Assembly (NCBI GenBank): GCA_937879955.1
Contig: CALFMK010000001.1
Location: 506,356-570,355, forward strand
Direction: 5' to 3'
DNA length: 64,000 nucleotides
DNA from: an uncultured bacterium
GTDB lineage: Bacteria > Patescibacteriota > Minisyncoccia > Phycocordibacterales > Phycocordibacteraceae
Each line of letters opens with the position of its first letter. The first letter of the stretch is position 1. This document shows positions 15,818-38,865 of this stretch, one piece after another. A program made the position numbers and the translations under genes. The notes below the pieces were generated by a model. The model made no database searches, was not told the origin of the DNA, and worked only from the letters and a program-made list of their open reading frames with translations.

Positions 15818-15830
15818 GTATCTATGAGTT

Positions 15831-16988: not shown

Positions 16989-17060
16989 GCCCCTATAGCT
17001 TAATGGATAAAGCTGCGGACTTCTAAGCCGTCGATCTTGGTTCGATTCCAGGTGGGGGCA
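16989..17060 (+). tRNA. tRNA-Arg (anticodon TCT)
   Basis: acceptor GCCCCTA/TGGGGGC, T-loop TTCGATT, loop CTTCTAA; anticodon stem has one mismatch so lower confidence. Confidence 0.65.
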
Positions 17061-17080
17061 CATTGTAGCGGCTCCGGTAT

Positions 17081-17575: not shown

Positions 17576-17622
17576 CCTCCTGGGTTCATCTTGAGGACTG
17601 CAGGTGCTACAGTCCTACAGAC

Positions 17623-17707
17623 GCGCACGTGGCGGAATTGGTATACGCGTACGTCTCAGAAGCGTATGGAGCAATCCTTGGAGGTTCAAGTCCTCTCGTG
17701 CGCACCA
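17623..17707 (+). tRNA. tRNA-Leu (anticodon CAG), CCA encoded
   Basis: type II tRNA, anticodon stem TACGT/GCGTA loop CTCAGAA, T-arm GGAGGTTCAAGTCCTCT, 3' ACCA. Confidence 0.8.
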
Positions 17708-17708
17708 C

Positions 17709-17740
17709 GGAGAAAGGCCGGCGATATGCCGGCCTTTCTC
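17709..17740. terminator. perfect 13-bp stem hairpin between convergent tRNA genes
   Basis: GAGAAAGGCCGGC-GATA-TGCCGGCCTTTCTC. Confidence 0.6.
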
Positions 17741-17748
17741 GTTTCCGG

Positions 17749-17821
17749 TGCGCGATGCAAGACTCGAACTTGCGACCATCCCGGTGTAAACGGGGTGCTC
17801 TACCAACTGAGCTAATCGCGC
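17749..17821 (-). tRNA. tRNA-Val (anticodon TAC)
   Basis: GCGCGAT/ATCGCGC acceptor, anticodon stem CCCCG/CGGGA loop TTTACAC. Confidence 0.85.
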
Positions 17822-17893
17822 GCAGAGGTAGAGTAGCGCAGATTCCGGATATTTTGAAGTGACCTAGGCCAGTCGTGCTAGGTTCTTATCTAT

Positions 17894-18172
17894 ATGCCCG
17901 AACGCCTCGAAGCCATCGTCTCCGGAAGGGTGCAGCTCGTGATGTACCGGGATTTCGCGCAGCGCAAGGCTCGCGGAATGAAGCTCGCGGGCACCGTGCA
18001 GAATCTTTCGGACGGGACGGTCCGCGTCATCGCGGAAGGTCCGCGCGAATCGCTCGACCGCTATCTCGCGAAGCTTCATGGCGGGCCGCTCCTCGCGAAG
18101 GTGGATGGCGTGGACGCAACGTGGCTCCCTGCGACTGGCGAGTTCGAAGGATTCGAGATCATCTATGGATAA
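17894..18172 (+). CDS. acyP: acylphosphatase
   Basis: 92 aa; VSGRVQLVMYR and GxVQN motifs of acylphosphatase fold. Confidence 0.8.
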   Translation: MPERLEAIVSGRVQLVMYRDFAQRKARGMKLAGTVQNLSDGTVRVIAEGPRESLDRYLAKLHGGPLLAKVDGVDATWLPATGEFEGFEIIYG

Positions 18173-18845
18173 GGGGCCGCGCTCGATCGGCGTGATCATG
18201 GACGGGAACCGCCGATGGGCGAAGTCCCGGGGGCTGCCGACGCTCGAAGGGCATAAGGCTGGCGCGGAGAAGATATTCGAGCTCGCGGACTGGGCGCATG
18301 CGGCCGGCGTCGAGGAGGTGATCCTGTACACGTTCTCGACCGAGAACTGGCAGCGGGCGGAAGAGGAGGTCGGGTACCTGATGCGCCTCGCCGAGCATCT
18401 GTTCACGGAAGAGCTCGGGCGCTTCGAGGAGGCGGGCGTCCGCGTCCGCTTCATCGGCGACCTCTCGCGCGCGAGCGACCGCATCCAGTCCGTCATGAAG
18501 GAAGCGGAAGCGCGCACGAAGGACGGCACGAACGGCACTATCGTCTTCGCGTTCTCGTACGGCGGACGCCCTGAGATCCTCGCGGCGGTCAACCGGCTGC
18601 TCCTAGAAGGGAAGGGGTCCGTGGACGAGGAGGGGTTCAAGGACGCGATGTGGAGCGCCGGGCTCCTCGACCCGGATCTCATCCTGCGCACGGGCGGGGA
18701 TCATAGGCTCTCGAACTTCCTGCCGTGGCAGTCGGTGTACAGCGAGCTCTTCTTCCTCGACACGATGTGGCCGGACCTCTCGAAGGAGGAGTTCGACGGC
18801 GTCCTCGCCGCGTTCCGCGAGCGCGAGCGCAGGCACGGGAAATAG
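18165..18845 (+). CDS. uppS: undecaprenyl diphosphate synthase (cis-prenyltransferase)
   Basis: IGVIMDGNRRWA, YTFSTENWQR, RTGGDHRLSNFLPWQ signatures; ATG overlaps acyP stop. Confidence 0.85.
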   Translation: MDKGPRSIGVIMDGNRRWAKSRGLPTLEGHKAGAEKIFELADWAHAAGVEEVILYTFSTENWQRAEEEVGYLMRLAEHLFTEELGRFEEAGVRVRFIGDLSRASDRIQSVMKEAEARTKDGTNGTIVFAFSYGGRPEILAAVNRLLLEGKGSVDEEGFKDAMWSAGLLDPDLILRTGGDHRLSNFLPWQSVYSELFFLDTMWPDLSKEEFDGVLAAFRERERRHGK

Positions 18846-18867
18846 CCCTTTGTGCTAGGGTGTCCCT

Positions 18868-19599
18868 ATGAACCCCACCATCCTCTACGAGGACGACGAG
18901 ATCGTAGCCATCGCCAAGGAGGCGGGCTGGATGACGCACCCGGACGGCCACACTACGGACGAGACTCTGAGCGACTGGTTCGCGCGAGCGTATCCGGCGT
19001 CCGCTACCGTGGGCGAGACCCAGCGACTCAAGGACGGGACGGAGATCGCGCGCCCGGGCGTGGTGCACCGTCTCGACCGCGACACCTCAGGCGTGCTCGT
19101 CTTCGCGAAGACCCCCGAGTCGCACGAGCGCCTCAAGGAGGCCTTCAAGGGCCGCCAGGCGAAGAAGACCTATCTCGCGTTCGTGTACGGCGAACTGAAG
19201 GAAGAGAAGGGGGCGATCGACTTCGCCATTGGACGCAGCAACAAGGACTTCCGTCTTCGCAGTGCGCAGCCGAAGGCGAAGGGCATGCTGCGCGATGCGC
19301 TCACGAGGTACCAGGTGATCGACAGCATCGGCACGCACTCGCTCGTTCGAATGATGCCGGAGACCGGTCGCACGCATCAGATTCGCGTGCACCTGAAGGC
19401 GATTCATCACCCGGTGGTCTGCGACCCGCTCTATGCGCCGGGCCGTCCCTGCGATCTCGGCCTCCCGCGCCTCGGCCTCCATGCGTACTCCCTCGAGGTG
19501 CCGCTCGCGTCCGGCCGGAAGCTCATCACGGCGCCGGTGCCAGGCGACATGAAGGCCGCGATTGCGCGCTTCAATGCGGGAGAGTACGCTTCGGCCTAG
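18868..19599 (+). CDS. RluA-family pseudouridine synthase
   Basis: HRLDRDTSGVLVFAKT catalytic Asp motif, HQIRVHL motif. Confidence 0.85.
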   Translation: MNPTILYEDDEIVAIAKEAGWMTHPDGHTTDETLSDWFARAYPASATVGETQRLKDGTEIARPGVVHRLDRDTSGVLVFAKTPESHERLKEAFKGRQAKKTYLAFVYGELKEEKGAIDFAIGRSNKDFRLRSAQPKAKGMLRDALTRYQVIDSIGTHSLVRMMPETGRTHQIRVHLKAIHHPVVCDPLYAPGRPCDLGLPRLGLHAYSLEVPLASGRKLITAPVPGDMKAAIARFNAGEYASA

Positions 19600-19626
19600 A
19601 CAGTCATTTCAAATACGGAGGCTTCG

Positions 19627-20160
19627 ATGGAAGCACACGAGATCCTGACGAAGGTCAGGCGCTATCCCGGATACGACGAATGCGTCGTGAAGGACGAGAG
19701 GTCGTTCATCATCATGAACGTCATGTGGCATCTCGCGAAGAGCGTGCGCGTCTGCACCGAGGCTCGCAAGCGCGCGGAGGTCGGATACAGCTACGAGCAG
19801 TTCTGCGAAACGCTCGCCACGCTCATGCGCGGCGCGATCCTTGCCGCGCTTACGGGCGGCGTAGGCTCGGTGTCTCTCGAGAGCGTCCTGGACGAATGGA
19901 AGTCGGAACGGGAACCGTCCGCGGACCCCTTCAAGAAGGGACGGGACAGCCTCTACTTCCCGGATCTGTGCGACCGCCTGATCGAGGAGATCTTCCTGGT
20001 GCTCGAGCTCACCGCATCCTCCGAGCCTCGTTACCAGGATCTGGAGAAATCGCTCCTGCGTCTTGTCCAGCACACTCTCCGTCTGGCTACTATGTTCAGC
20101 TATGGTCGGGAGGAGTTCGAGCGATTCCTCACATCTCCGGCCCAAGGCCTTGCGGCCTGA
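19627..20160 (+). CDS. hypothetical protein
   Basis: 177 aa; GGAGG SD 7 nt upstream; no family recognised. Confidence 0.55.
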
Positions 20161-20175
20161 ACGCGCTATTTCTAC

Positions 20176-20201
20176 GGCGGCTTCCCTTGGGGAGCCGCCG
20201 T
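20176..20201. terminator. terminator hairpin
   Basis: CGGCGGCTTCCCTTGGGGAGCCGCCG. Confidence 0.6.
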
Positions 20202-20202
20202 T

Positions 20203-20230
20203 TTGCTTTTGGAAACCGCCGTGGTACAGT
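20203..20230 (+). promoter_or_regulatory. putative sigma-70-type promoter of rplS (TTGCTT-N16-TGgTACAGT)
   Basis: -35-like TTGCTT, extended -10 TGGTACAGT; same TGgTACAGT element upstream of rpsF (43161..43170) and rplJ leader (54745..54753). Confidence 0.4.
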
Positions 20231-20239
20231 ACCGCGGCA

Positions 20240-20782
20240 ATGAACGCAGTCCACACACCAGTCAAAACCGAAGAGCGCACCCAGCTCGGCATCCGCCCGG
20301 GCGATACCGTTCGCGTCCACCAGAAGGTGATCGAGAAGGGGAAGACGCGCCTCCAGGTATTCGAGGGCCTCGTCCTCGCCGTGAAGCACGGCACCGAGGC
20401 AGGCGCGACCTTCACGGTCCGCGCCATGATGTCCGGCATCGGCGTCGAGAAGATCTTCCCGCTCTACAGCCCGATCATCGACAAGATCGACATCGTCCGC
20501 CGCTCTAAGGTCCGCCGCGCGAAGCTCTACTTCATCCGCGAGAAGGTCGCCCGCGAGGTACGCCGCCAGCTCCGCAACATGCGCATGGTCAACCTCTCCA
20601 CGGCAGACTTCAAGGAAGAGGAGAAGCCGGAGGCTCCTATCGAGGAGGAGGTCGTCGCGACCGACGCCGCAGATGTCACCGTCGAGGTGGACACCGTCCC
20701 TGAGGGAGACCAGGATGTCGTCACTTCGGAGGAGACCGCCGCAGAGGAGGCTCGCGAGGAGAAGAAGAACGAGGAGGCGTAA
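20240..20782 (+). CDS. rplS: 50S ribosomal protein L19 with acidic C-terminal extension
   Basis: N-terminal 120 aa match L19 ([26 protein letters not shown]); extra 60 aa E/D-rich tail. Confidence 0.85.
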
Positions 20783-20803
20783 GCCACTCTTTCGCACGAG
20801 GAT

Positions 20804-20828
20804 GAAGAGCCGGCCATGCCGGCTCTTC
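20804..20828. terminator. terminator hairpin
   Basis: GAAGAGCCGGCC-ATG-CCGGCTCTTC followed by T-rich tract. Confidence 0.65.
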
Positions 20829-20865
20829 ATATTTTCATTACCGACGCAGCGTATGCTTCGGGTAT

Positions 20866-21549
20866 ATGGGACTGCGCGGGCCGAAGCCTAAGAGGCAGGA
20901 GATTAAATGGACCGAGGATTTCGCCTACGCGGTCGGGCTACTCGCGACCGACGGCTGCCTCTCTTCTGACGGGAGACATCTCTCGCTTGTATCGAAGGAT
21001 CGCGAGCAGGTAGAGGCAATCAAGAGGTGTCTCGGCTTAGGGGCGGGCATACGTCGTCATGATGCCGGAGTCGCTGGTAAGGACCGGGCATACTTTCGCA
21101 TCCAGTGGGGAGACGTGATTCTGTACGACTTCCTAAGGTCCATAGGGATCAGGGAGCGGAAATCTCTCACCATCGGCGCACTCCAGATACCGGACGAATA
21201 CTTCTTCGATTTCCTGCGAGGCTCGTTCGACGGGGATGGAAGCTTCTACAGCTATCGCGATCCTCGATGGAGCACGAGCTTCATGATCTATACGAGCTTC
21301 GCATCAGCCAGCCATGCCCATGTATGTTGGCTCCGCGAGACCGTACGACGCCTCGCTGGAATCGTCGGACACGTGTCTGTCAGCAAGAGGGGGAATGGCA
21401 TGTACAGCCTCCGGTACGCCAAGCGGGAATCGTTGCAGCTGCTCGCCCGGCTGTACTCTAAGGCCGGCTCGGCCTGCCTTGCGAGGAAAAGATTGAAAAT
21501 AGAGCGCAGTTTGCGTATAGTAGGCGAGTTGCTGCCGGCTGGCAGCTAG
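20866..21549 (+). CDS. double-motif LAGLIDADG homing endonuclease (free-standing)
   Basis: two LAGLIDADG motifs: FAYAVGLLATDGCLSSDG and FFDFLRGSFDGDGSFYSY; 227 aa; GC slightly below flanks; abuts tRNA-Leu. Confidence 0.8.
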   Translation: MGLRGPKPKRQEIKWTEDFAYAVGLLATDGCLSSDGRHLSLVSKDREQVEAIKRCLGLGAGIRRHDAGVAGKDRAYFRIQWGDVILYDFLRSIGIRERKSLTIGALQIPDEYFFDFLRGSFDGDGSFYSYRDPRWSTSFMIYTSFASASHAHVCWLRETVRRLAGIVGHVSVSKRGNGMYSLRYAKRESLQLLARLYSKAGSACLARKRLKIERSLRIVGELLPAGS

Positions 21550-21554
21550 AACGA

Positions 21555-21636
21555 GCCCGGGTGTCGAAATTGGTAGACGAGCATCCTTGAGGTGGATGTG
21601 CCGAAAGGCGTGGAGGTTCAAGTCCTCTCTCGGGCA
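21555..21636 (+). tRNA. tRNA-Leu (anticodon GAG)
   Basis: type II tRNA, anticodon stem CATCC/GGATG loop TTGAGGT, T-arm GGAGGTTCAAGTCCTCT. Confidence 0.8.
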
Positions 21637-21747
21637 CACTGTAAGGTAATCGAAGCAAAAGGGACTTCTTGTGGAGTCCCTTTTGCCGTCCAGGATAGAG
21701 ACAGGGACTCACCATTTCCCGGTTCTCGTGCTATAACCCTTCTACAT

Positions 21748-21821
21748 GGCGGCCTTAGCTCAGTTGGTAGAGCATCGGTTTGTGGTACCGACGGTCATGG
21801 GTTCGAGCCCCATAGGTCGCC
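21748..21821 (+). tRNA. tRNA-His (anticodon GTG) with genome-encoded G-1
   Basis: extra 5' G pairing with discriminator C, anticodon loop TTGTGGT, T-loop TTCGAGC. Confidence 0.85.
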
Positions 21822-21830
21822 CCTAGTTAT

Positions 21831-29584: not shown

Positions 29585-31267
29585 ATGGAAGAGACCCTGT
29601 CGCTCGCGATCCGGAACGCCCTCGACGAGATGGGCGCGGCTGACGTCGCGTTCGCGCTCGAGTGGCCGGCAGACCTCGCGCACGGCGACTTCGCGACCAA
29701 TGCGGCCATGGCGGCAAGCAAGGCGCTCGGGAGGAATCCGCGCGAGATCGCCGAGGAGCTCGTGGGGAAGCTCAAGGAGTCGCTCGACGACTCGGTAGAG
29801 ACGGTCACGGCTGCAGGACCCGGCTTCGTGAACATCACGCTCGCGCGCGCCGCTATCGCCGCCGAACTCGCGCGTGCCACGTCGCTCAAGGGCGACTGGG
29901 GGAGGGGTGTCGCCCGCGACGGCGAGCGCGTCGCGTTCGAGTACTCCTGCCCGAACCCGTTCAAGGAGATGCACGTCGGCCACCTCATGAGCACCGTCAT
30001 CGGGGAGGCGGGAGCCCGCATCCTCGAGAACCAAGGCGCGCGCGTGCTGCGCGATACCTACGGCGGCGACGTCGGCCCGCACGTGGCGAAGGCGCTCTGG
30101 GCGCTCAAGCGCAGCGGCATCGACACCCCGACGACCGCCGAAGAGGTGGGGAACGCGTACGCGGAAGGCTCGAGGGCGTACGAGGAGAGCGAGAACGCCA
30201 AGGCCGAGATCGACGCGATAAATACGCAGCTGTACCGCGCGCTCGCGAAGGAGGATGCCGAGCGCGACGAGTCCGATCGTGCCTTGCTCGAGACCTGGCG
30301 CCACGGGCGCGAAGTGTCCTTCGAGGCGAACCGCGCGATCTGGAGCGCGCTCGGCACGAATTTCGATTACGTGATCCATGAGAGCGAGACCACGCCGCTC
30401 GGCATGCAGGTGGTGAAGGACGCGCTTTCTCGCGGCATCTTCGCCGAGAGCGAAGGCGCCGTCATCTACGAGGGCGAGAAGAAGGGGCTCCATACGCTCG
30501 TCTTCCTCACGTCCCGCGGCAACCCGACGTACGAGGCCAAGGAGGTCGGCCTCGCGTTCCTCAAAGAAGAGCGCATGGGTCCGCTCGACCGGGTCTACAT
30601 AACCACCGCCGCGGAGCAGAAGGGGCACTTCCAGGTGTTCCTCGCGGCGCTCGAGGATATCGCGCCGGCGCTCGCCGCAAAGACTGCGCATGTCCCGCAC
30701 GGGTTCCTCCGCCTCACCACCGGCAAGATGTCGTCTCGCGAGGGCAATATCGTCACGGCCGCCGGCCTCATCGAGGAGATCGTGGCGAAGGCGTCCGAGC
30801 GCAACGAGGATCCGCTCGTGGCGCAGGCGGTAGCGATCGGCGCCATAAAGTACATGATCCTGCGCCAGGCCGCGGGAGGGGATATCGTCTTCGATCCGGA
30901 GAAGTCCCTTTCGCTCGACGGCGATTCGGGCCCGTATCTCCAGTACGCGTTAGTTCGCGCGAAGTCCGTCATCGCGCAGTCCGAGAAGAAGGCGGATAGC
31001 GCAGACGCTCCTCCCGAAGCGTACGATCTCGAACGGCTTCTCATCCGCTTCCCGGAGGTAGCGCGGAAGGCGGAGAGCCTGCGCGCATCGCATCAGGTGA
31101 CGCAGTACCTCACGCAACTGGCAAGCGAGTGGAACTCGTTCTATGCGAACGAGCGCATCCGTGATGGCGCGCATGAGGCGTACAAGCTCCTTATCGCGAG
31201 CGCGTTCGTTACGACCATGGAGAATGGGCTCGCGCTCCTCGGCATCCCGGTCCCGGAACGTATGTAG
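29585..31267 (+). CDS. argS: arginine--tRNA ligase
   Basis: 560 aa; class I HIGH-type motif NPFKEMHVGHLMSTVIGEA, KMSSR-like GKMSSREGN, DALR anticodon-binding C-terminus. Confidence 0.9.
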   Translation: MEETLSLAIRNALDEMGAADVAFALEWPADLAHGDFATNAAMAASKALGRNPREIAEELVGKLKESLDDSVETVTAAGPGFVNITLARAAIAAELARATSLKGDWGRGVARDGERVAFEYSCPNPFKEMHVGHLMSTVIGEAGARILENQGARVLRDTYGGDVGPHVAKALWALKRSGIDTPTTAEEVGNAYAEGSRAYEESENAKAEIDAINTQLYRALAKEDAERDESDRALLETWRHGREVSFEANRAIWSALGTNFDYVIHESETTPLGMQVVKDALSRGIFAESEGAVIYEGEKKGLHTLVFLTSRGNPTYEAKEVGLAFLKEERMGPLDRVYITTAAEQKGHFQVFLAALEDIAPALAAKTAHVPHGFLRLTTGKMSSREGNIVTAAGLIEEIVAKASERNEDPLVAQAVAIGAIKYMILRQAAGGDIVFDPEKSLSLDGDSGPYLQYALVRAKSVIAQSEKKADSADAPPEAYDLERLLIRFPEVARKAESLRASHQVTQYLTQLASEWNSFYANERIRDGAHEAYKLLIASAFVTTMENGLALLGIPVPERM

Positions 31268-31304
31268 ATAAGCGCTATTGCGCATTTGACGGGCGAGCGG
31301 TAGT

Positions 31305-31592
31305 GTGGCATCTGACTCCATTCGGGGGTCATTGATATTTAGGGAGCTACCGTTGAGCAAGAAGAGCGATCGTAAGACGGACCGTGTCCGCAAGGCCTGC
31401 AAGAGCTTCGGCATGTCGGCCATCGCCCTCTTCCAGAGGGCGTACCAGTGGTACCACGGCACGCTTGTCCCGAAAGCGGCCCGTCTGGCCCATACGGCCT
31501 ATGTGCGGACGAAGAAGGCCCCGAGCTGGGTCCTCAACTACATCAGTCGCGGGCATAAGGAATGGCTCGACAGGGCCGCCGTTGCCGCCTGA
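31305..31592 (+). CDS. hypothetical basic protein
   Basis: 95 aa ORF ending before hairpin terminator 31607..31640; possible alternative TTG start with AGGGAG SD. Confidence 0.4.
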   Translation: MASDSIRGSLIFRELPLSKKSDRKTDRVRKACKSFGMSAIALFQRAYQWYHGTLVPKAARLAHTAYVRTKKAPSWVLNYISRGHKEWLDRAAVAA

Positions 31593-31681
31593 CACTGCTT
31601 CATCGGTTTTGTATCAACGGCCGTCGCACTACGCGACGGCCGTTTTCCTTTTGGTACGCAAAACGCTAGGATGAAGAGACT

Positions 31682-34600
31682 ATGGCAGATACCGAGAAGA
31701 CAGAGGTCGCTAAGCGCGAAGAGGCCATACAGGCTTTCTGGAAGGACCGGAATATCTTCAAGAAGACGCTCGAGAAGGACGCGCCGAAGGGTGAGTTCGT
31801 CTTCTACGACGGTCCGCCGTTCGCGACCGGCCTTCCGCACTCAGGCTCGCTTCTGTCCTCGGTCTCGAAGGACCTCATGCCGCGCTATAAGACGATGCGC
31901 GGGTACCGCGTCCGCAGGCGCTGGGGCTGGGATACGCATGGGCTTCCGATCGAGTCGCTCGTGGAAAAGAAACTCGGTCTCAAGAACAAGAAAGAGATCC
32001 TCCAGGTTGGGGTAGAGACCTTCAACGAGACGGCGCGCTCGATGGTGCTCGAGTACGTGCATGAATGGAAGCGCTACGTGGAGCGCGTCGGCCGGTTCGT
32101 GGATTTCGACAACTCGTACAAGACCATGGACAACACGTTCATCGAGTCGGTGTGGTGGGGACTGAAGCAGATCCACGGAAAGGGCCGCCTCTACGAGGGG
32201 CGGAAGGTGCTCATGTATTGCCCGCACTGCGAGACGCCGCTGGCGAAGGCGGAGATCGCGATGGACAACACCTACAAGGACATCACGGAAGAGACCGCTA
32301 CCGTGAAGTTCAGGCTCACGGAGCCATCGAAGAACGGTCTGCCGGAGAATACCTATCTTCTTGCCTGGACGACCACCCCGTGGACGCTTCCGGGCAATGT
32401 CGCGCTCGCCGTGGGGCCGGACATCATGTACGGCATCTACGAGCACGAGGGGAAGAACCTCGTCGCGGCAAAGGATCTCGCCGAGAAGCTCGGTCTCGGA
32501 CCGATCAAGCACGAGCTCTCCGGGACGGTGCTCCTCGGAGCCGAGTACGAGCCGCTCTACGAGATTTCGAAGGTGCGCGCCCATGAAGGGAAGAAGTGGC
32601 TCGTCCTTCCGGCAGATTTCGTGACGACTACCGACGGTACGGGCATCGTGCACACGGCCGTCATCTACGGCGAGGACGACTACCAGCTCGGGGTCAAGGA
32701 AGGGCTCCCGATGATACCGATCCTGAATCCGAACGCGACCTACAACGATGACGCGCCGGAGTTCCTCCGCGGAAAGTACATCAAGAAGGCTGAGGCCGAG
32801 ATAAAAGAGGACCTCGCATCGCGCGGGCTATTGTTCGCGCGCGATATGCATACGCACTCGTACCCGCACTGCTACCGGTGCGGCACCGCGCTCATCTATA
32901 ACGCCGTCTCGTCCTGGTTCATCGACATCCAGGCGGTGAAGGACCGCATGCTCGCCGAGAACGAGAAGATCACGTGGGTGCCCGGGCACCTCAAGCACGG
33001 CCGCTTCCAGAAGAACCTCGAGACCGCGCCGGACTGGACGATATCGCGCAATCGCTTCTGGGCGAGTCCGCTCCCGATATGGAAGGGGCAGGACGGGAGC
33101 GTTCTCGTTGTCGGGTCGCTCGACGAGCTCAAGGAGCGGACGAAGAAGAGCGGGAACCGGTACCTCGCGATGCGTCACGGCGAGACTGAGAACACGCTCG
33201 CCTCGATACTCAGCAGCGACCCCCTGAAGAACCCTCTCACGGAGAGTGGGCGCGAGGACGTGCTCGCACGGGCACGGGAACTGAAGGCGAATCCTCCGAC
33301 GCGCATATACGCATCGCCGGTGCTGCGTGCGCGCGAGACTGCCGAGATCCTGCGGAAGGAGCTCGGCCTCGAGGAGGACCTGCTCGTGTTCGATGATCGG
33401 CTCCGCGAGCTCTCGCTCGGCGAGTTCGAGAATAAGAATCTTGAAGACCTCCTCAGCTGGCGCGCGACGCACGCGTACGATGAGGCGTCGGAAGGAGGCG
33501 AGAGCTATCTCGAGGCGAAGCGCCGTTTCGGCGATTTCCTGTACGAGATAGAAGGACGGCACGAAGACGAGACCATACTCATCGTGACGCACGGCGTCGG
33601 TCTCGAGTCGCTGTCTATGCTCGCGCAGGGCCTCGATACGGACGCCTCGAAGCAGGCGATAGAGACCATGTCGTTCAAGCCTGCGGAACTGATCGAGATT
33701 CCGTTCGTGCCGTTGCCGCATAACCGCGACTACGCGCTCGATTTCCATCTTCCCTATATCGACCGCATCCAGCTCGTGGACGAGCAGGGAGGGGCGCTTA
33801 CGCGCATACCTGAGGTGGTCGACTGCTGGGTAGAGTCCGGATCGATGCCGTTTGCGGAGTACCACTATCCGTTCGAGAACAAGGCTGAGTTCGAGCGCCG
33901 GACGCCGGGAGATTTCATATCGGAGTACATCGGGCAGACACGCGCCTGGTTCTACTACATGCATGCGATAAGCCTCGAGCTGTTCGACCATCTCGCGTTC
34001 AAGAACGTGATAACGACCGGGAACGTGCTTGCCGCGGATGGCGCGAAGCTCTCAAAGAGCAAGAACAACTACACCGATCCATATATCCTCTTCGACAAGT
34101 ACGGAGCGGATGCGTACCGCTACGCGCTCATGTCGAGCGTCGTGATGCAGGCAGAGGACCTCACGTTCAGGGATGACGACGTGAAGGATGCGCATGCCCG
34201 TATCGTGAACATGCTCCGGAACATATACGGCTTCTACGAGCTCTACAAGGATGATCTTATCGAGGGAACGAAGCTCTCTAACGAGCATCCGCTCGACCGC
34301 TGGATACAGGCGCGCCTCCAGGCACTCGTATCCGATGTCACGGATTCGTTCGACCGCTATGACGTGCCGCGCGGCGTCCGCGCATATCGTGATTTCATCG
34401 ACGATCTCTCCAACTGGTACGTGCGACGTTCCCGCGATCGCGCCAAGGGAGATAATGAGGCTGACAAGCAGCACGTCCTCGTCATGCTGCGCGAGGTGCT
34501 CATGACCTTCTCGAAGGTCATAGCTCCGGTGATGCCGTTCATCGCTGAGGAGGTGTACCAGGGCGTCCGGACCGATACGGACCCTGAAAGCGTGCACCTC

Positions 34601-35059
34601 GCTTCGTGGCCCGAGCATCATGTGGGCGTTCTCGATACGCTCCTCGGAAAGCAGAAGAAGGATGCGCAGCTCGTCGAGGATATGAAGCGTGTCCGCTCCC
34701 TCGCGTCCGATGCGCTCCGTCTTCGCCAGAAGGCCGACATAAAGGTGCGCCAGCCGCTCGCATCGCTTTCCATTCCGGGAACGCTTTTGCCTGAGCTCGC
34801 CGCGATCCTCGCGGACGAGGTGAACGTGAAGGAGGTGGTCATGAACGCGGAGGAGATGGTACTCGATACCGAGCTCACGCCAGAGCTCGTCGCCGAGGGA
34901 GACGAGCGTGCGTTCGCGCGCGCGGTCGCCGAGGCTCGTAAGAATGAGGACCTGTCGCCGAAGGATATCGTCAGGGTAGAGAAGCGCGAGGACGGGACGC
35001 ATGTCGCGGAGCTCTCGACCGGTCCGGTCCGGTTCTCGCTCGTACGGGATGCGGCATAA
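31682..35059 (+). CDS. ileS: isoleucine--tRNA ligase with inserted histidine-phosphatase-like domain
   Basis: 1125 aa; HIGH region PFATGLPHSGSLL, CP1 editing region, DWTISRNRFWASPLPIW, KMSKS-like KLSKSKNN; about 180 aa RHG...H domain inserted between the SRNRFW motif and HLPYIDRI. Confidence 0.9.
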   Translation: MADTEKTEVAKREEAIQAFWKDRNIFKKTLEKDAPKGEFVFYDGPPFATGLPHSGSLLSSVSKDLMPRYKTMRGYRVRRRWGWDTHGLPIESLVEKKLGLKNKKEILQVGVETFNETARSMVLEYVHEWKRYVERVGRFVDFDNSYKTMDNTFIESVWWGLKQIHGKGRLYEGRKVLMYCPHCETPLAKAEIAMDNTYKDITEETATVKFRLTEPSKNGLPENTYLLAWTTTPWTLPGNVALAVGPDIMYGIYEHEGKNLVAAKDLAEKLGLGPIKHELSGTVLLGAEYEPLYEISKVRAHEGKKWLVLPADFVTTTDGTGIVHTAVIYGEDDYQLGVKEGLPMIPILNPNATYNDDAPEFLRGKYIKKAEAEIKEDLASRGLLFARDMHTHSYPHCYRCGTALIYNAVSSWFIDIQAVKDRMLAENEKITWVPGHLKHGRFQKNLETAPDWTISRNRFWASPLPIWKGQDGSVLVVGSLDELKERTKKSGNRYLAMRHGETENTLASILSSDPLKNPLTESGREDVLARARELKANPPTRIYASPVLRARETAEILRKELGLEEDLLVFDDRLRELSLGEFENKNLEDLLSWRATHAYDEASEGGESYLEAKRRFGDFLYEIEGRHEDETILIVTHGVGLESLSMLAQGLDTDASKQAIETMSFKPAELIEIPFVPLPHNRDYALDFHLPYIDRIQLVDEQGGALTRIPEVVDCWVESGSMPFAEYHYPFENKAEFERRTPGDFISEYIGQTRAWFYYMHAISLELFDHLAFKNVITTGNVLAADGAKLSKSKNNYTDPYILFDKYGADAYRYALMSSVVMQAEDLTFRDDDVKDAHARIVNMLRNIYGFYELYKDDLIEGTKLSNEHPLDRWIQARLQALVSDVTDSFDRYDVPRGVRAYRDFIDDLSNWYVRRSRDRAKGDNEADKQHVLVMLREVLMTFSKVIAPVMPFIAEEVYQGVRTDTDPESVHLASWPEHHVGVLDTLLGKQKKDAQLVEDMKRVRSLASDALRLRQKADIKVRQPLASLSIPGTLLPELAAILADEVNVKEVVMNAEEMVLDTELTPELVAEGDERAFARAVAEARKNEDLSPKDIVRVEKREDGTHVAELSTGPVRFSLVRDAA
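33143..33676 (+). other. histidine phosphatase (phosphoglycerate mutase-like) domain embedded in ileS
   Basis: RYLAMRHGETENT (RHG catalytic motif) and LIVTHGVGL (second catalytic His) with intervening helical region; in frame within IleRS. Confidence 0.6.
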
Positions 35060-35600
35060 GTACGTCACGAGCTCCTTCGTTCTCGCCCGGACACCGCTCG
35101 CGGAATCCGCGACGCTCGTCACGCTCCTCACCGACGAGTTCGGCCTCATACGGGCGCGCGCGGAAGGACTCAGGAAGCCCGGCGCGAAGCTCGCGCATGC
35201 GCTGCAGACCCTCGACCGTTCCGAGGTGACGCTCGTGCGCGGGAAGGAAGGATGGCGCCTGTCGGGCGCGATCCTCGACGCGCACTGGTTCGAGAAGCTC
35301 GACCGGGCTTCACGGCTGCGTGCCGGACGCATCGCCGGCCTTTTGCTGCGCCTTGTGCACGGAGAAGCGAACGAACCCGCGCTCTTCGACCTCTTCGCGG
35401 ATTTCATGCGTGCGCTATCCAGCCTTCCCGAGGCGTCGCAGGACACGCTCGAGTGCGTGACCGCGCTCCGCATGCTCGCCCTGCTCGGTCTCGATGCCGG
35501 ACCTCTGCCGGCGACGGATGCGTACGAGCCGCTCTCGGCAGAGGAGCGCCGCGCGATGGTGACGCGCATCAATCACGGCATACTCGCGTCGGGACTCTGA
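35049..35600 (+). CDS. recO: DNA repair protein RecO-like (short)
   Basis: 184 aa; N-terminal OB-fold pattern VLARTPLAESATLVTLLTDEFGLIRARAEGLRKPGAKLAHALQ like RecO; start overlaps ileS 3' end by 11 nt. Confidence 0.55.
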   Translation: MRHKYVTSSFVLARTPLAESATLVTLLTDEFGLIRARAEGLRKPGAKLAHALQTLDRSEVTLVRGKEGWRLSGAILDAHWFEKLDRASRLRAGRIAGLLLRLVHGEANEPALFDLFADFMRALSSLPEASQDTLECVTALRMLALLGLDAGPLPATDAYEPLSAEERRAMVTRINHGILASGL

Positions 35601-35633
35601 TTCGCGCACGCGCGTTGCTATACTAGGGGGACG

Positions 35634-37526
35634 ATGCCACCGACCCCTGAAGACGACCTCAGTACGCTCGAGCGCATGCGTCGCAGGCTCTACGCTGCCG
35701 ACGCGCCGGAGGAATTCAAGGCCCCGGCCCTCGCGCACGCAGATGCGCCGGCGCCTGCGGCAGAGGAGGGCTGGGCGCCTCCGGTCGTCGCGCCTAAGAA
35801 GCGCCGCGTATCCTACGCCGCGCTCTTCCTCGGGGGCGCCGCGCTCTTCTTCGTGCTCGCGACCGCCGCCGCCGCGTACTTCCTCATCTTCGGCGGGCGC
35901 TCGGTCTCGACCGATCACATAACCGTCACCACAGACGGCCCGACGAGCATAAGCAGCGGCGACACCGTCACGCTCCTCATCGCGGTAGAGAACGGGAACC
36001 CGGTGGCCGCGAAAGGGACCACGCTCTCCGTGGAGCTCCCCGATACGGCCCGGTCTCCGGAGAACCAGGAGGAGCCGTTCGCGCGGTACGAGGACACGCT
36101 CGGCGACATCGCGCCGGGCGAGACCGAATCGCGCTCGGTCCGCATGGTGCTGTTCGGCGCGGAGAACGAGCGCGTGGCCATCCCGATACGCCTCGAGTAC
36201 CGCGTGGACGGATCGAATGCGGTGTACGTGAAGGAGGCCGAGTACGACGTCGTCATCACGTCCTCGCCGATAAGCATCAGCGCGGAAGCCGTGACCGAGG
36301 CGTCGGCAGGGCAGACAATCACGTTCGCCGTGAAGGTGCGCTCGAACGCGAAGGAGACGATAGAGAACGTGGCGGTCCTCGCCGAGTACCCGTTCGGGTT
36401 CCAGGCGGCGCGCGGCCAGGGCCCGGTCTATCAGGTGGGTACGCTCGAGCCGGGAGAGGAACGCACCATCGCGGTGTCGGGCACGCTCTCGGGCGAGGAC
36501 AGCGACGAGCGCGTCTTCCGCTTCACGGCAGGCACCCGCAAGGACGCGTCGGCGAACCTCCTGACCGTCTCCTACGCGACGACTCCGGTATCGGTGGGGC
36601 TCAAGAAGCCGTTCCTGCAGACGACGCTCTCGATCGATCGCGATACGAGCACGTCGCCTGTCGTCGCGGCAGGGGCGCAGATCCAGAGCATCATCTCGTG
36701 GGTGAACACGCTCACCTCGCCGATCCTCGACGGACAGGTGTCCGTGAAGCTCTCGGGAACCGCGCTCGACGCCTCGTCGGTGACCGCCTACAGCGGCTTC
36801 TACCGCTCCTCCGACATGACGATCGTTTATTCCAAGGAGTCGGACCGCGGCCTCGCGAACCTTGCGCCGGGTGCGACCGGCAGCGGCTCGTTCATCTTCA
36901 GGGTGAAGCCGAACGCGTCGCTTGCGAACGTGAAGAACCCGACGATCGTCGCGACTGTCTCGGTAGCCGGGCGCCGCTATGACGAGAACAACGTGCCCGA
37001 GAGCGTCTCGTCCACGCTCGTGCGCACCATAAAGGTGGGTACCGAGCTCGAGCTCGCCGGGACCTCTCGCTACACGACGGGCCCGTTCAAGAACACCGGT
37101 CCGTGGCCGCCGGTCGCCGACCAGGAGACCACCTACACGCTCGACCTCGCGCTCTCGAACACCGTGAATTCGGTGGCGGACGCGGTCGTGACCGGCACGC
37201 TCCCGTCCTACGTGCGCTACGTAGGCGCCACGAACCCGGCTGACGGCTCCATCACCTATAACGCTGCGTCCCGTACCGTCACCTGGAAGGCAGGGGATGT
37301 CGCGATCGGCAGCGGGCACGGCACGGCTGCGCGCCAGGCCTCGTTCCAGGTCGCGCTGTTGCCAAGCATCTCGCAGCGCGGTACAAGTCCTGTACTCATG
37401 TCCGGGCTGAAGGCGACCGGATTCGACCGCTTCACGGAGCGGCAGCTCTCGGTCGGGCAGTCCGACATAACCACCCAGACGCTCGGCGATCCGGCCTTCG
37501 TCCAGGGGAAGGCAGAAGTGAAATAA
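35634..37526 (+). CDS. large membrane-anchored extracellular protein (repeated beta-domain architecture)
   Basis: 630 aa; N-terminal cytoplasmic segment, one TM helix, then long Thr/Ser/Val-rich beta-type repeats; no family recognised. Confidence 0.6.
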   Translation: MPPTPEDDLSTLERMRRRLYAADAPEEFKAPALAHADAPAPAAEEGWAPPVVAPKKRRVSYAALFLGGAALFFVLATAAAAYFLIFGGRSVSTDHITVTTDGPTSISSGDTVTLLIAVENGNPVAAKGTTLSVELPDTARSPENQEEPFARYEDTLGDIAPGETESRSVRMVLFGAENERVAIPIRLEYRVDGSNAVYVKEAEYDVVITSSPISISAEAVTEASAGQTITFAVKVRSNAKETIENVAVLAEYPFGFQAARGQGPVYQVGTLEPGEERTIAVSGTLSGEDSDERVFRFTAGTRKDASANLLTVSYATTPVSVGLKKPFLQTTLSIDRDTSTSPVVAAGAQIQSIISWVNTLTSPILDGQVSVKLSGTALDASSVTAYSGFYRSSDMTIVYSKESDRGLANLAPGATGSGSFIFRVKPNASLANVKNPTIVATVSVAGRRYDENNVPESVSSTLVRTIKVGTELELAGTSRYTTGPFKNTGPWPPVADQETTYTLDLALSNTVNSVADAVVTGTLPSYVRYVGATNPADGSITYNAASRTVTWKAGDVAIGSGHGTAARQASFQVALLPSISQRGTSPVLMSGLKATGFDRFTERQLSVGQSDITTQTLGDPAFVQGKAEVK

Positions 37527-37539
37527 CCTTTAGATACCT

Positions 37540-38865
37540 ATGAACGTCACGCTCGAACAGATAGTCTCGCTCGCGAAGCGCCGCGGATTCGTATTCCCGG
37601 GCTCAGAGATCTACGGCGGCCTCGCCGGCACCTTCGACTACGGGCCGCTCGGCGTGACGCTCAAGAAGAACATCGAGAACCTCTGGTGGCGCATGTTCGT
37701 GGAGGAGCGCGACGACATGTACGGCATCGACGCCGCCATCCTCATGAACCCGAAGGCGTGGGAGTCGTCCGGCCACGTGGCAGGATTCTCCGATCCTCTC
37801 GTCGACTGCAGCAACTGCAAGAAACGCTTCCGTGCGGATCATCTCGAGGACCCGAACGTATGCCCGGCATGCGGCAAGGAGGGAACGCTCGGCGAGGCGC
37901 GCCAGTTCAACATGATGTTCGCCACGAAGGCAGGCGCGTCCGAGGACGAGTCCGCCACCGTCTACCTCCGTCCCGAGACCGCGGGCGGCATGTTCGTGAA
38001 CTTCAAGAACGTCGTCGACTCCTTCCATCCGAAGCTCCCGTTCGGCCTCGCGCAGATCGGCAAGGCGTTCAGGAACGAGATCGCGCCGCGCGAGTTCGTG
38101 TTCCGCGTCCGCGAGCTCGAGCAGATGGAGGTGGAGTACTTCGTGCGCCCGGAGGAGTGGGAGGCCTCGTTCGAGGCATGGCGCGTAGGCATGCTCGCGT
38201 TCGCAGACGCTATCGGCCTCCCGAAGGACATGCTCCACGAGCTCGAGGTGTCGGCGGAGGACCGCGCGCACTACTCGAAGCGCACCATCGACTTCGAGTT
38301 CGACTATCCGTTCGGCCGCCGCGAGCTCTGGGGCCTCGCGTACCGCACCGACTTCGACCTGAAGGCGCACCAGGAGGGCTCGAGCGTGAGTCTCGAGTAC
38401 CAGGACGAGGAGACGAAGACGAAGTTCCTCCCGCACGTCATCGAGCCGTCGCTCGGCGTCGGCCGCACCATGCTCGCGGTCCTCGCGTCCGCGTACCGCG
38501 AGGACGAGCTCGGCGGCGAGACGCGCACCTACCTCGCGCTCAAGCCTGCGCTCGCTCCGGTGAAGGCCATGGTCTCGCCGCTCCTGAAGAACAAGCCCGA
38601 GCTCGTCGAGAAGGCGAAGGAGGTGCGCAAGCTCCTCCAGAAGGTGCATCCGGCAATCGCCTGGGACGATAACGGCAACATCGGCAAGCGGTACCGCCGC
38701 CAGGACGAGATCGGCACGCCGTTCTGCGTCACGGTTGATTTCGATACGCTCGGCGAGAACCCTGAGCTCGAGGGCACCGTCACGCTCCGCCATCGCGATA
38801 CGGGCGCGCAGGAGCGCCTCTCGATCGAGGAGGTCGCGGAGCGCATCCGCGCGTCCCTCGCCTAG
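37540..38865 (+). CDS. glyQS: glycine--tRNA ligase (dimeric GlyQS type)
   Basis: 441 aa; class II motifs, zinc-knuckle CSNCKKRFRADHL...CPACG, anticodon-binding C-terminus. Confidence 0.9.
   Translation: MNVTLEQIVSLAKRRGFVFPGSEIYGGLAGTFDYGPLGVTLKKNIENLWWRMFVEERDDMYGIDAAILMNPKAWESSGHVAGFSDPLVDCSNCKKRFRADHLEDPNVCPACGKEGTLGEARQFNMMFATKAGASEDESATVYLRPETAGGMFVNFKNVVDSFHPKLPFGLAQIGKAFRNEIAPREFVFRVRELEQMEVEYFVRPEEWEASFEAWRVGMLAFADAIGLPKDMLHELEVSAEDRAHYSKRTIDFEFDYPFGRRELWGLAYRTDFDLKAHQEGSSVSLEYQDEETKTKFLPHVIEPSLGVGRTMLAVLASAYREDELGGETRTYLALKPALAPVKAMVSPLLKNKPELVEKAKEVRKLLQKVHPAIAWDDNGNIGKRYRRQDEIGTPFCVTVDFDTLGENPELEGTVTLRHRDTGAQERLSIEEVAERIRASLA

What the first reader, a model, noticed from the sequence alone, without database searches (positions are those of the whole stretch)
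33143..33676. Isoleucyl-tRNA synthetase carries an in-frame histidine-phosphatase (phosphoglycerate-mutase-like) domain insertion
IleS is 1125 aa. Between the conserved DWTISRNRFWASPLPIW segment and the HLPYIDRI segment, type-2 IleRS enzymes have only a few dozen residues. Here there are about 215 residues. They contain a complete branch-1 histidine phosphatase signature: the RHG motif in LAMRHGETE, conserved Arg/Glu positions, and the second catalytic His in IVTHGVG. No stop codon or frameshift separates it from the synthetase, so it appears to be a genuine domain insertion rather than a neighbouring gene. A phosphatase module inside an aminoacyl-tRNA synthetase is not a standard architecture. 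It could be a moonlighting or regulatory function, or a degenerate mobile insertion.
Basis: partly seen in the sequence, partly recalled or inferred. Interest (0 to 1): 0.75.

Follow-up and report, generated by a model that had tools for sequence, protein, structure and literature searches.

The report
Active phosphatase domain nested inside IleRS
This uncultured (candidate-phyla-radiation) bacterium's isoleucyl-tRNA synthetase carries a complete histidine-phosphatase domain, apparently active, spliced into a surface hairpin of its catalytic core; over a hundred related protein families share this layout, one lineage instead has a separate phosphatase gene directly in front of ileS, and I found no published description.

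Summary

It is not an artefact or a degenerate mobile insert. All 120 best full-length homologs (62-100% identity, Patescibacteria/Paceibacterota) carry it. So do 121 of the 150 best 50%-identity cluster representatives. The catalytic residues R498, H499, R549, E607 and H637 are essentially invariant in about 300 domain copies, although the insert is the fastest-evolving part of the protein.

New finding: in a Staskawiczbacteria-like lineage and in L081, the orthologous phosphatase is a separate ~190-aa gene between argS and an insert-free ileS (7 of 7 loci). Other relatives carry 2-4 tandem copies or extra GNAT domains.

The substrate is unknown. My best reading is an active PhoE-like small-molecule phosphomonoesterase permanently partnered with IleRS. 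Coupling to aminoacylation is possible but untested. I found no literature description. It is a new variant of a known kind.

The parts
31682..35059 (+). ileS: 1125-aa type-2 (eukaryote-like) isoleucyl-tRNA synthetase with a nested phosphatase domain (stop codon included)
   Evidence: ORF. TIGR00392 774.5 bits against cutoff 621.4. PDB phmmer best hits are 1ILE and P. megaterium IleRS2. AlphaFold pLDDT 92.3, pTM 0.84. Foldseek TM (normalised to target) 0.80 to 8C8V and 0.90 to 1ILE.
31682..33148 (+). IleRS N-terminal part (aa 1-489): first Rossmann half, CP core, CP1 editing domain (WTTTPWT, GTGIVH, first CxxC...CxxC zinc site), DWTISRNRFWASPLPIW strand, first arm of the former zinc hairpin
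   Evidence: Aligns to 1ILE residues 11-482. Conserved columns.
31838..31849 (+). Class I signature motif, here HSGS instead of HxGH
   Evidence: Translation. Column counts: Ser at the 4th position in 105/119 close relatives, His in 35/40 diverged ones.
33149..33709 (+). Nested histidine phosphatase domain (aa 490-676, SGNRY...EIPFV)
33170..33649 (+). Pfam His_Phos_1 (PF00300) match, aa 497-656
   Evidence: E 8.1e-30, 104.4 bits.
33173..33181 (+). RHG motif: R498, nucleophile H499, G500
   Evidence: R and H are 303/303 in aligned domain copies.
33326..33328 (+). R549, second phosphate-binding arginine (SPxxR)
   Evidence: 311/311. Aligns with the SxxxRAxETAE segment of PhoE; its role as the phosphate-binding Arg is inferred from family knowledge.
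33500..33502 (+). E607, presumed proton donor (GGES)
   Evidence: 307/313. Aligns with the GE of PhoE; the proton-donor role is inferred from family knowledge.
33590..33592 (+). H637, second catalytic histidine (VTHG)
   Evidence: 309/310. Aligns with the VTHGV segment of PhoE.
33710..35056 (+). IleRS C-terminal part (aa 677-1125): return arm of the hairpin (PLPHNRDYALDFHLPYID), DCWVESG strand, KLSKS loop (34046-34060), anticodon-binding and type-2 C-terminal domains
   Evidence: Aligns to 1ILE residues 488-814. Pfam Anticodon_1 at 872-1026 and a weak DUF5915 match. KLSKS confirmed.
29585..31267 (+). argS (ArgRS), conserved upstream neighbour. In the split lineage the stand-alone phosphatase gene lies between argS and ileS.
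   Evidence: Pfam. Synteny.
35001..35600 (+). recO, conserved downstream neighbour (start codon uncertain; the listed ORF overlaps the ileS end)
   Evidence: Pfam RecO_N. Synteny.

Best explanation
The gene encodes a bifunctional protein: a complete type-2 IleRS with a second enzyme, a PhoE/PspA/GpgP-like branch-1 histidine phosphatase, nested in it.

Where the insert sits. It is at the tip of the surface hairpin that follows the DWxISRxRxW..P.P.W strand. This is the second zinc knuckle of Thermus IleRS. By its order in the chain I infer it is the element called CP3 in recent IleRS nomenclature.

Shown:
- The insert folds as an autonomous domain whose first and last strands enter and leave side by side.
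- The synthetase halves on either side are intact.
- The phosphatase catalytic set (R498, H499, R549, E607, H637) is under strict purifying selection, while the rest of the insert evolves faster than any other part of the protein.
- The architecture is old and widespread in Patescibacteria.
- The orthologous phosphatase exists as a separate gene immediately upstream of an insert-free ileS in another CPR lineage.

Inferred:
- The domain is an active phosphomonoesterase that uses the standard family chemistry. His499 attacks the phosphate to give a phospho-histidine intermediate. Glu607 protonates the leaving group and then activates water.
- It most likely acts on a small phosphorylated metabolite or nucleotide.
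- It runs its own catalytic cycle. IleRS provides obligatory 1:1 co-expression and co-localisation through a permissive loop; the phosphatase is not a step of aminoacylation.

My estimates: real conserved nested domain 0.97; catalytically active 0.8; small-molecule substrate 0.6; mechanistically independent of aminoacylation about 0.5.
For: Architecture:
- (ORF, Pfam E 8e-30, ileS equivalog above cutoff, insert delimited against 1ILE).
- full-length AlphaFold pLDDT 92.3, pTM 0.84, insert blocks 92-97.
- host part superposes on IleRS2 structures.
- closest solved sequence is the broad-specificity phosphatase PhoE (E 6e-18).

Selection:
- insert identity 45% against 81% for the catalytic core among close relatives.
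- catalytic residues invariant in about 300 copies, including both or all copies of tandem arrays.

Breadth:
- 120 of 120 best homologs carry PF00133 + PF00300.
- 121 of 150 representatives are embedded in IleRS.
- Yanofsky-, Staskawicz-, Spechtbacteria, Minisyncoccia, Peregrinibacteria/Peribacteria. Non-CPR IleRS lack the insert.

Autonomy of the module:
- a stand-alone ~190-aa ortholog lies between argS and an insert-free ileS in 7 of 7 loci.
- those proteins hit nested domains best, not other stand-alone phosphatases.
- 2-4 tandem copies, and GNAT domains elsewhere in IleRS, indicate a permissive site and a dosage-tolerant passenger rather than a precisely positioned part of the synthetase.
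Against: - No enzymatic data, and the substrate is unknown.
- No curated phosphatase or mutase family is reached (dPGM_arch 88 against 225, CobC 69 against 163, PspA 45 against 350, SixA 26 against 74.5), so specificity cannot be transferred.
- The persistent pairing with ileS, whether fused or adjacent, is what Rosetta-stone logic predicts for functionally linked proteins. That argues against complete independence.
- However, argS-ileS-recO is itself a conserved block of functionally unrelated genes, so adjacency alone is weak evidence.
- The window clade also has a non-canonical HSGS signature motif, so full IleRS activity is itself an inference from conservation.
Confidence: 0.5

Rival explanations
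1. The phosphatase is mechanistically coupled to aminoacylation. It would be held at the synthetase because it acts on something IleRS makes, needs or is inhibited by. Candidates:
- Nucleotide by-products (AMP, ADP, PPi, ApnA-derived species).
- A blocked tRNA(Ile) 3' end (3'-phosphate, or the 3'-pyrophosphate added by toxSAS/CapRel-type toxins).
- An inhibitory phosphoserine on the KMSKS loop of the kind HipA-type toxin kinases place on other synthetases.
For: - The phosphatase-IleRS pair is conserved in two genetic forms: nested, or a separate gene 2-7 nt upstream of ileS in 6 of 7 split loci.
- The ileS-adjacent stand-alone proteins belong to the same clade as the nested domains.
- The insertion point is only about 35 residues upstream of the DCWVESG strand. 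By homology to other class Ia enzymes (my knowledge), that strand lines the amino-acid pocket.
- Some relatives also carry GNAT domains inside IleRS. From my knowledge, GNAT is a fold known to act on aminoacyl-tRNA and aminoacyl-adenylate analogues.
Against: - Tandem arrays of 2-4 fully active copies are hard to reconcile with a precise geometric relationship to the active site.
- The closest structural relatives are metabolite phosphatases, not protein or RNA phosphatases.
- To my knowledge no histidine phosphatase is known to act on RNA 3' ends.
- Some CPR IleRS lack the insert, and no phosphatase was found within 6 kb (L038, L043, L070). Any coupled function is therefore dispensable.
- Geometry was not testable here.
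Confidence: 0.33
2. The domain is a structural or regulatory pseudo-enzyme. It would replace the lost zinc knuckle as a folding or stability element, or bind a phosphorylated ligand as a sensor that tunes IleRS, without turnover.
For: - In the window's clade the four cysteines of the second zinc knuckle are gone (G469, D471, Q702 in place of Cys), so the insert could have taken over a structural role.
- The domain packs with high predicted confidence in the full-length model (pTM 0.84).
Against: - About half of the diverged insert-bearing relatives still keep the zinc cysteines, so the insert predates and does not depend on zinc loss.
- The nucleophile His, both Arg, the Glu and the second His are invariant in about 300 copies while the surrounding sequence drifts to 30-45% identity. 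This is the signature of catalysis, not scaffolding.
- The same protein persists as a free-standing gene.
Confidence: 0.08
3. The apparent fusion is not biological: a frameshift or assembly chimera joining two genes, or a recent degenerate mobile insertion (intein-like or transposon-borne).
For: - Metagenome-assembled CPR genomes do contain mis-assemblies.
- One fragmentary relative (P0002) shows a frameshifted 3' end.
- One relative (P0263) really does carry a RAYT/IS200 transposase domain inside IleRS.
Against: - The reading frame is continuous, with IleRS sequence on both sides of the insert.
- The identical junctions recur in more than 100 independent assemblies down to about 31% insert identity.
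- No compositional break.
- No intein, endonuclease or transposase domain in this protein.
- The insert carries a conserved active site.
Confidence: 0.02

Closest known systems
Type-2 (eukaryote-like, mupirocin-resistant) IleRS, e.g. Thermus thermophilus 1ILE and Priestia megaterium IleRS2 8C8U/8C8V
   Same: - Same domain order and fold outside the insert (Foldseek TM normalised to target 0.80-0.90).
- ileS equivalog score above cutoff.
- Editing-domain motifs, first zinc site, KMSKS-type loop and type-2 C-terminal domains are present.
   Different: - A 187-aa enzyme domain sits at the tip of the second zinc hairpin, where Thermus has about 5 residues.
- The hairpin's four cysteines are lost in this clade.
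- The HxGH motif reads HSGS.
PhoE broad-specificity phosphatase of (Geo)bacillus stearothermophilus (1EBB/1H2E) and its structural neighbours PspA phosphoserine phosphatase (4IJ5) and GpgP (6S2Q)
   Same: - Same RHG / R / E / H catalytic constellation.
   Different: - Those are free-standing proteins.
- The insert reaches none of the curated family cutoffs, so substrate specificity cannot be transferred.
- The domain here is nested inside another enzyme or encoded directly upstream of it.
NCBIfam NF040702 'isoleucine--tRNA ligase, N-acetyltransferase domain-containing'
   Same: The only curated IleRS family I found that is defined by an extra small-molecule enzyme domain inside or attached to IleRS. 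Some relatives of the window protein carry GNAT domains together with the phosphatase (P0260, P0263).
   Different: - The window protein has no GNAT domain and scores 300 bits against a cutoff of 1999.
- The extra domain here is a phosphatase.
Other fusions of a His_Phos_1 domain to nucleic-acid or nucleotide enzymes: mycobacterial MutT1 (Nudix + histidine phosphatase; 9CXX, 3FJY) and Rv2228c-type RNase H / acid phosphatase (NCBIfam NF005567)
   Same: A branch-1 histidine phosphatase module joined to an enzyme of nucleotide or nucleic-acid metabolism. Weak similarity is seen.
   Different: - Those are end-to-end fusions, not nested insertions.
- Scores are far below cutoff (58.7 against 326).
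- The partner enzyme is different.
CP1 editing domain of class Ia synthetases
   Same: Precedent for a whole catalytic domain nested in a connective peptide of the Rossmann fold of IleRS, ValRS and LeuRS (established knowledge; domain nomenclature in PMC11685878).
   Different: - CP1 is universal in these enzymes and acts on the enzyme's own product.
- The phosphatase insert is lineage-specific, sits in a different connective element, and has no known role in aminoacylation.

Membership tests
Isoleucyl-tRNA synthetase (TIGR00392 ileS equivalog) | Full-length HMM score above the curated cutoff | tested here: met
   774.5 bits against cutoff 621.4, matched in two stretches either side of the insert.
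Isoleucyl-tRNA synthetase (class I) | HxGH (HIGH) signature motif | tested here: not met
   The motif reads HSGS. Ser at the 4th position is conserved in 105/119 close relatives, so it is a clade-wide variant, not a lesion. The functional consequence is untested. The only published IleRS2 variant I found is GxHH (PMC10485003).
Isoleucyl-tRNA synthetase (class I) | KMSKS loop | tested here: met
   KLSKS at aa 789-793. K789, S791 and K792 are invariant.
Isoleucyl-tRNA synthetase (class Ia) | CP1 editing domain with Thr-rich and GTGxVH motifs | tested here: met
   WTTTPWT (229-235) and GTGIVH (319-324) are invariant or nearly so. The editing-domain PDB entries 1WK8 and 1UDZ match aa 198-396.
Type-2 IleRS (IleRS2) | Closer to the eukaryote-like / MupA-MupB group than to IleRS1; type-2 C-terminal domains without the C-terminal zinc-binding domain | tested here: met
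   - PDB best hits are 1ILE, P. megaterium IleRS2 and yeast IleRS (E 1e-185 to 1e-195), against IleRS1 at E 1e-74 to 1e-90.
- Foldseek gives the same order.
- Weak DUF5915 match at the C-terminus.
Histidine phosphatase superfamily, branch 1 (Pfam PF00300) | HMM score above the gathering threshold | tested here: met
   104.4 bits against 21.7, E 8.1e-30, aa 497-656.
Histidine phosphatase superfamily, branch 1 | Catalytic core: RHG nucleophile His, two Arg, proton-donor Glu, second His | tested here: met
   R498, H499, R549, E607 and H637 are present, align with the corresponding conserved motifs of PhoE, and are invariant in about 300 copies.
Histidine phosphatase superfamily, branch 1 | Alpha/beta fold of the family | tested here: met
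   [not shown]
Histidine phosphatase superfamily, branch 1 | Phosphatase (or mutase) activity | not testable with these tools
   Requires enzymology. Activity is inferred only from active-site conservation.
Cofactor-dependent phosphoglycerate mutase (dPGM; NF038349, TIGR01258, NF002339) | Equivalog HMM score above cutoff | tested here: not met
   [not shown]
Named phosphatase subfamilies (CobC alpha-ribazole phosphatase, PspA, GpmB, SixA) | Equivalog HMM score above cutoff | tested here: not met
   CobC 68.8 against 162.9; PspA 44.9 against 350; GpmB 43.7 against 261; SixA 25.8 against 74.5.
IleRS with GNAT domain (NF040702) | Exception-level HMM score and presence of an acetyltransferase domain | tested here: not met
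   300.5 bits against 1999, and no GNAT domain in Pfam.
Intein or mobile-element insertion | Hint/intein splicing motifs, homing endonuclease or transposase domain; compositional break | tested here: not met
   Pfam finds only synthetase and His_Phos_1 domains. GC is flat across the insert.

The most novel reading that the evidence does not exclude
The phosphatase is a previously unrecognised accessory activity of an aminoacyl-tRNA synthetase: a built-in (or operon-encoded) repair or counter-defence module. It would restore chargeable tRNA(Ile) or an active synthetase. It could do this by removing a 3'-terminal phosphate or pyrophosphate from tRNA, of the kind left by ribonuclease toxins or added by toxSAS/CapRel-type enzymes. 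Alternatively it could strip an inhibitory phosphate from the KMSKS loop, or clear an inhibitory phosphorylated nucleotide at the active site. CPR bacteria would then have hard-wired an antitoxin-like or proofreading-like phosphatase into IleRS, in analogy to the CP1 editing domain.
Probability: 0.15. Interest if true: 0.9.

Novelty: new variant of a known kind. Interest (0 to 1): 0.66.

Why it matters
Aminoacyl-tRNA synthetases are among the most conserved enzymes known. In bacteria their architecture is considered essentially fixed, and extra catalytic domains are rare and usually meaningful (CP1 editing, eukaryotic appended domains).

Here a second, apparently active enzyme has been nested in the catalytic core of IleRS and kept across a large part of the Patescibacteria. 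These organisms have tiny genomes, where every retained activity is likely to matter. A split-gene counterpart gives a natural experiment for testing whether the two activities need each other.

If the phosphatase is independent, this shows how genome-reduced symbionts use permissive loops of essential proteins as carriers for other enzymes. It also identifies a loop that tolerates 190-800 extra residues, which is useful for engineering.

If the phosphatase is coupled, it would be a new kind of synthetase accessory function.

Practically, current pipelines under-annotate these proteins: PGAP calls them 'class I tRNA ligase family protein', and JGI calls some stand-alone phosphatases 'isoleucyl-tRNA synthetase'. 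The altered HSGS signature motif also adds a further natural variant to the HxGH/GxHH story of mupirocin resistance in IleRS2.

Tried and rejected
1. Frameshift or two-gene artefact. Rejected: continuous ORF with synthetase sequence on both sides, and junctions reproduced in more than 100 assemblies.

2. Degenerate or mobile insertion. Rejected: invariant active site, flat GC, no mobile-element domains.

3. True phosphoglycerate mutase. Rejected as a family assignment: all dPGM models are far below cutoff, and the phosphatases are closer in sequence and structure.

4. A known lineage-specific IleRS insertion. The published 'INS' of IleRS2 lies in the C-terminal ARD2 domain, not here. The papers on IleRS2 structure and evolution do not mention a phosphatase.

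5. Literature searches for IleRS or aaRS combined with histidine phosphatase, phosphoglycerate mutase, CPR, Patescibacteria or GNAT found nothing relevant. The library covers open-access papers only, so absence is not proof.

6. Gene neighbourhood as a clue to the substrate. The block argS-ileS-recO-DUF11 protein-class II aaRS is housekeeping and uninformative. More distant stand-alone homologs sit among NUDIX, GNAT, Peptidase_S51 and serine-hydrolase genes, which is suggestive but not decisive.

7. A neighbour-joining tree of the IleRS core, meant to decide whether nested or split is ancestral. It gave a paraphyletic, poorly resolved picture with midpoint rooting. I draw no conclusion from it beyond L020 and L081 grouping together inside CPR IleRS.

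An exact-sequence contig look-up of the window protein found nothing, so the organism could not be named beyond its Paceibacterota/Patescibacteria relatives.

9. The spatial relation of the phosphatase pocket to the synthetic site could not be computed, because model coordinates are not exposed.
Full report
**1. The observation**

The window holds one uninterrupted ORF at 31682-35059 (+) encoding 1125 aa. Its identity as IleRS is clear:
- Pfam finds tRNA-synt_1 (E 4e-119) and Anticodon_1.
- It scores 774.5 bits against NCBIfam TIGR00392 ileS (cutoff 621.4).
- Its closest solved relatives are type-2 enzymes: T. thermophilus 1ILE, P. megaterium IleRS2 and yeast IleRS.

Pfam also finds His_Phos_1 (PF00300) at aa 497-656 with E 8.1e-30.

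The Thermus enzyme aligns to query 10-489 and 686-1004, using its own residues 11-482 and 488-814. About 196 residues are therefore inserted where Thermus has about 5. By sequence the insert is aa 490-676 (SGNRY...EIPFV), nt 33149-33709.

Composition is flat across the insert.

**2. Where it sits**

In Thermus, the segment WVCQACGKEE...ELACACGG on either side of this point holds four cysteines. From my memory of the 1ILE description they form the second zinc site. The phosphatase is spliced into the tip of that hairpin.

In the window's clade the cysteines are replaced (G469, D471, Q702). About half of the more diverged insert-bearing relatives still have them, so the insertion came first and the zinc loss later.

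Recent IleRS papers divide the connective peptides into CP core, CP1 (editing), CP2 and CP3 (PMC11685878). By its order in the chain this hairpin should be CP3. That assignment is my inference.

**3. Structure**

- AlphaFold on a 90-sequence alignment gives mean pLDDT 92.3 and pTM 0.84, with the insert at 92-97.
- The non-insert part superposes on IleRS2 structures (TM normalised to target 0.80 for 8C8V, 0.90 for 1ILE).
- The domain alone gives pLDDT 96.0 and pTM 0.92.
- By sequence the nearest solved protein is PhoE (E 6e-18).
- No curated subfamily cutoff is reached. The domain is a branch-1 histidine phosphatase of unassigned specificity. 'Phosphoglycerate-mutase-like' applies to the fold only.

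**4. Distribution**

- A full-length search returned 120 best hits of 1108-1187 aa at 62-100% identity. Every one carries PF00133 + PF00300. Source names are Patescibacteria, Candidatus Paceibacterota or Kaiserbacteria, and PGAP calls them only 'class I tRNA ligase family protein'.
- An exhaustive HMMER scan of 1.84 billion 50%-identity representatives, using the insert plus short flanks, found 52 proteins at E<=1e-30 and 606 at E<=1e-10. Of the best 150, 121 carry IleRS flank motifs.
- In GTDB species genomes the insert-bearing form appears in Yanofsky-, Staskawicz- and Spechtbacteria, Minisyncoccia, Peregrinibacteria/Peribacteria and some MAGs labelled Saccharibacteria.

**5. Selection**

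- Among close relatives the insert is 45% identical to the window protein, against 81% for the Rossmann core, 69% for the editing domain and 59% for the C-terminus.
- Yet R498 and H499 (303/303), R549 (311/311), E607 (307/313) and H637 (309/310) are essentially invariant across all aligned domain copies.
- This pattern is expected for an active enzyme and is the main argument against a scaffold or a decaying insert.

**6. Variants**

- Some relatives have two tandem phosphatase domains (typical of Peribacteria loci L015, L018, L019, L021), and one has four. All copies but one (the first copy of P0282) retain the full catalytic set.
- Others add GNAT acetyltransferase domains (P0260, P0263).
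- P0263 also carries a RAYT/IS200-type transposase domain inside the editing region.
- CPR IleRS therefore looks unusually permissive to nested domains.

**7. The split form**

The best stand-alone homolog with a long contig, P0006, lies between argS and a 989-aa insert-free ileS with canonical HYGH and intact zinc cysteines, followed by recO (L081).

The GTDB locus L020 (Ca. Staskawiczbacteria) has the same order. The phosphatase stop codon lies 4 nt before the ileS start (stop ends at 5998, ileS starts at 6003).

A search with the L020 phosphatase found at least 298 clusters of ~190-aa stand-alone proteins. Five of them on long contigs were looked up. All five lie between argS and an insert-free ileS of 938-958 aa (called as two ORFs in L091). 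In one case a RHH/YafQ toxin-antitoxin pair and two other ORFs sit in between. That makes 7 of 7 loci.

By BLAST the two ileS-adjacent phosphatases tested (L020, P0006) hit nested domains best. More distant stand-alone homologs (P0005, P0010, P0013) hit each other best. Those that were looked up (P0010, P0013, P0020, P0030) sit in unrelated contexts with NUDIX, GNAT, Peptidase_S51 and serine-hydrolase genes.

In the window itself the order is SHMT-argS-ileS(with insert)-recO-DUF11 protein-class II aaRS. The phosphatase has therefore either moved about 1.4 kb from the upstream gene into the hairpin, or moved out of it. My rough NJ tree cannot say which.

**8. Interpretation**

Shown:
- A real, ancient, conserved nested domain with an intact active site.
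- A module that can also exist on its own and stays next to ileS.

Inferred:
- It is an active phosphomonoesterase (His499 phospho-intermediate, Glu607 acid/base).
- It most likely acts on a small phosphorylated metabolite or nucleotide, given its nearest structural relatives.

Whether it serves aminoacylation is open.
- For independence: tandem multiplication, a loop that also accepts other domains, and the fact that argS-ileS-recO is itself a conserved block of unrelated genes.
- For coupling: the Rosetta-stone pairing in two genetic forms, the tight operon packing, and proximity in sequence to the strand that lines the amino-acid pocket.

I put about 0.5 on an autonomous passenger enzyme, 0.33 on functional coupling (nucleotide by-products, tRNA 3'-end healing, or removal of inhibitory phosphorylation), 0.08 on a non-catalytic scaffold or sensor, and 0.02 on artefact.

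**9. Novelty**

Searches of the open-access library for the synthetase together with histidine phosphatase, phosphoglycerate mutase, CPR, Patescibacteria or GNAT found nothing describing this. Two recent IleRS2 structure and evolution papers do not mention it.

The sequences are public but unremarked and under-annotated. I class it as a new variant of a known kind: a known enzyme with a known domain in a new, nested and evolutionarily stable combination, plus a split-gene counterpart.

**10. Side observations**

- The class I signature reads HSGS here, and Ser at the fourth position occurs in 105/119 close relatives. Diverged relatives have HxGH or the GxHH motif that confers mupirocin hyper-resistance in IleRS2 (PMC10485003).
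- The 23S rRNA gene is about 570 nt longer than the Rfam model and has no 16S gene in the 58 kb upstream.

Noticed in passing
window 31838-31849 (aa 53-56 of IleRS): The class I HxGH signature motif reads HSGS. Ser at the 4th position is conserved in 105/119 close relatives. Diverged insert-bearing relatives have HxGH (27/40) or GxHH (12/40). GxHH is the non-canonical motif shown to give mupirocin hyper-resistance in IleRS2 (PMC10485003). The papers I read do not describe an H-x-G-S variant.
   Followed up: partly
window 33086-33094 and 33785-33790 (aa 469-471, 702-703): The four cysteines of the second zinc knuckle (Thermus CQAC...CAC) are replaced in the window's clade. About half of the diverged insert-bearing relatives keep them, so zinc loss followed the domain insertion.
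   Followed up: partly
relatives P0171, P0232, P0259, P0261, P0283; loci L015, L018, L019, L021: IleRS relatives with two tandem phosphatase domains at the same site (Peribacteria) and one protein with four. In the multi-copy proteins all copies but one (in P0282) keep the full catalytic set.
   Followed up: partly
relatives P0260 (aa 305-413) and P0263 (aa 326-472 and 921-1065): Further domains nested in or appended to CPR IleRS: GNAT acetyltransferases, and in P0263 a RAYT/IS200-type tyrosine transposase domain inside the editing region (81.3 bits against cutoff 80). CPR IleRS seems unusually tolerant of inserted domains.
   Followed up: no
L020 5390-5998; L081 1958-2527; L090-L094 around 5001-5600: Stand-alone orthologs of the nested phosphatase always lie between argS and an insert-free ileS (7 of 7 loci). 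JGI annotates two such 195-197-aa proteins as 'isoleucyl-tRNA synthetase', and PGAP names the nested form only 'class I tRNA ligase family protein'.
   Followed up: yes
L093 5678-6161: A RHH antitoxin / YafQ-like toxin pair, plus two unknown ORFs, is inserted between the stand-alone phosphatase gene and ileS in one locus.
   Followed up: no
window 59050-62544 and 62647-62752: The 23S rRNA match spans 3495 nt against a 2925-nt model, about 570 nt extra. There is no endonuclease-like ORF of 120 aa or more and no group I intron hit at gathering threshold. 5S follows. No 16S gene lies in the 58 kb upstream, so the rRNA genes are unlinked, as is common in CPR bacteria.
   Followed up: partly
[not shown]
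   Followed up: no
window 29585-38865: Three aminoacyl-tRNA synthetase genes lie within 10 kb: argS, ileS and a class II enzyme with an HGTP anticodon domain at 37540-38865. They are interleaved with recO and a 630-aa DUF11 protein. The block is syntenic across many Paceibacteria loci.
   Followed up: partly
window 9858-21823: A loose cluster of nine tRNA genes on both strands (Lys, Arg x3, Ser, Leu x2, Val, His). No tRNA-Ile lies within the window.
   Followed up: no
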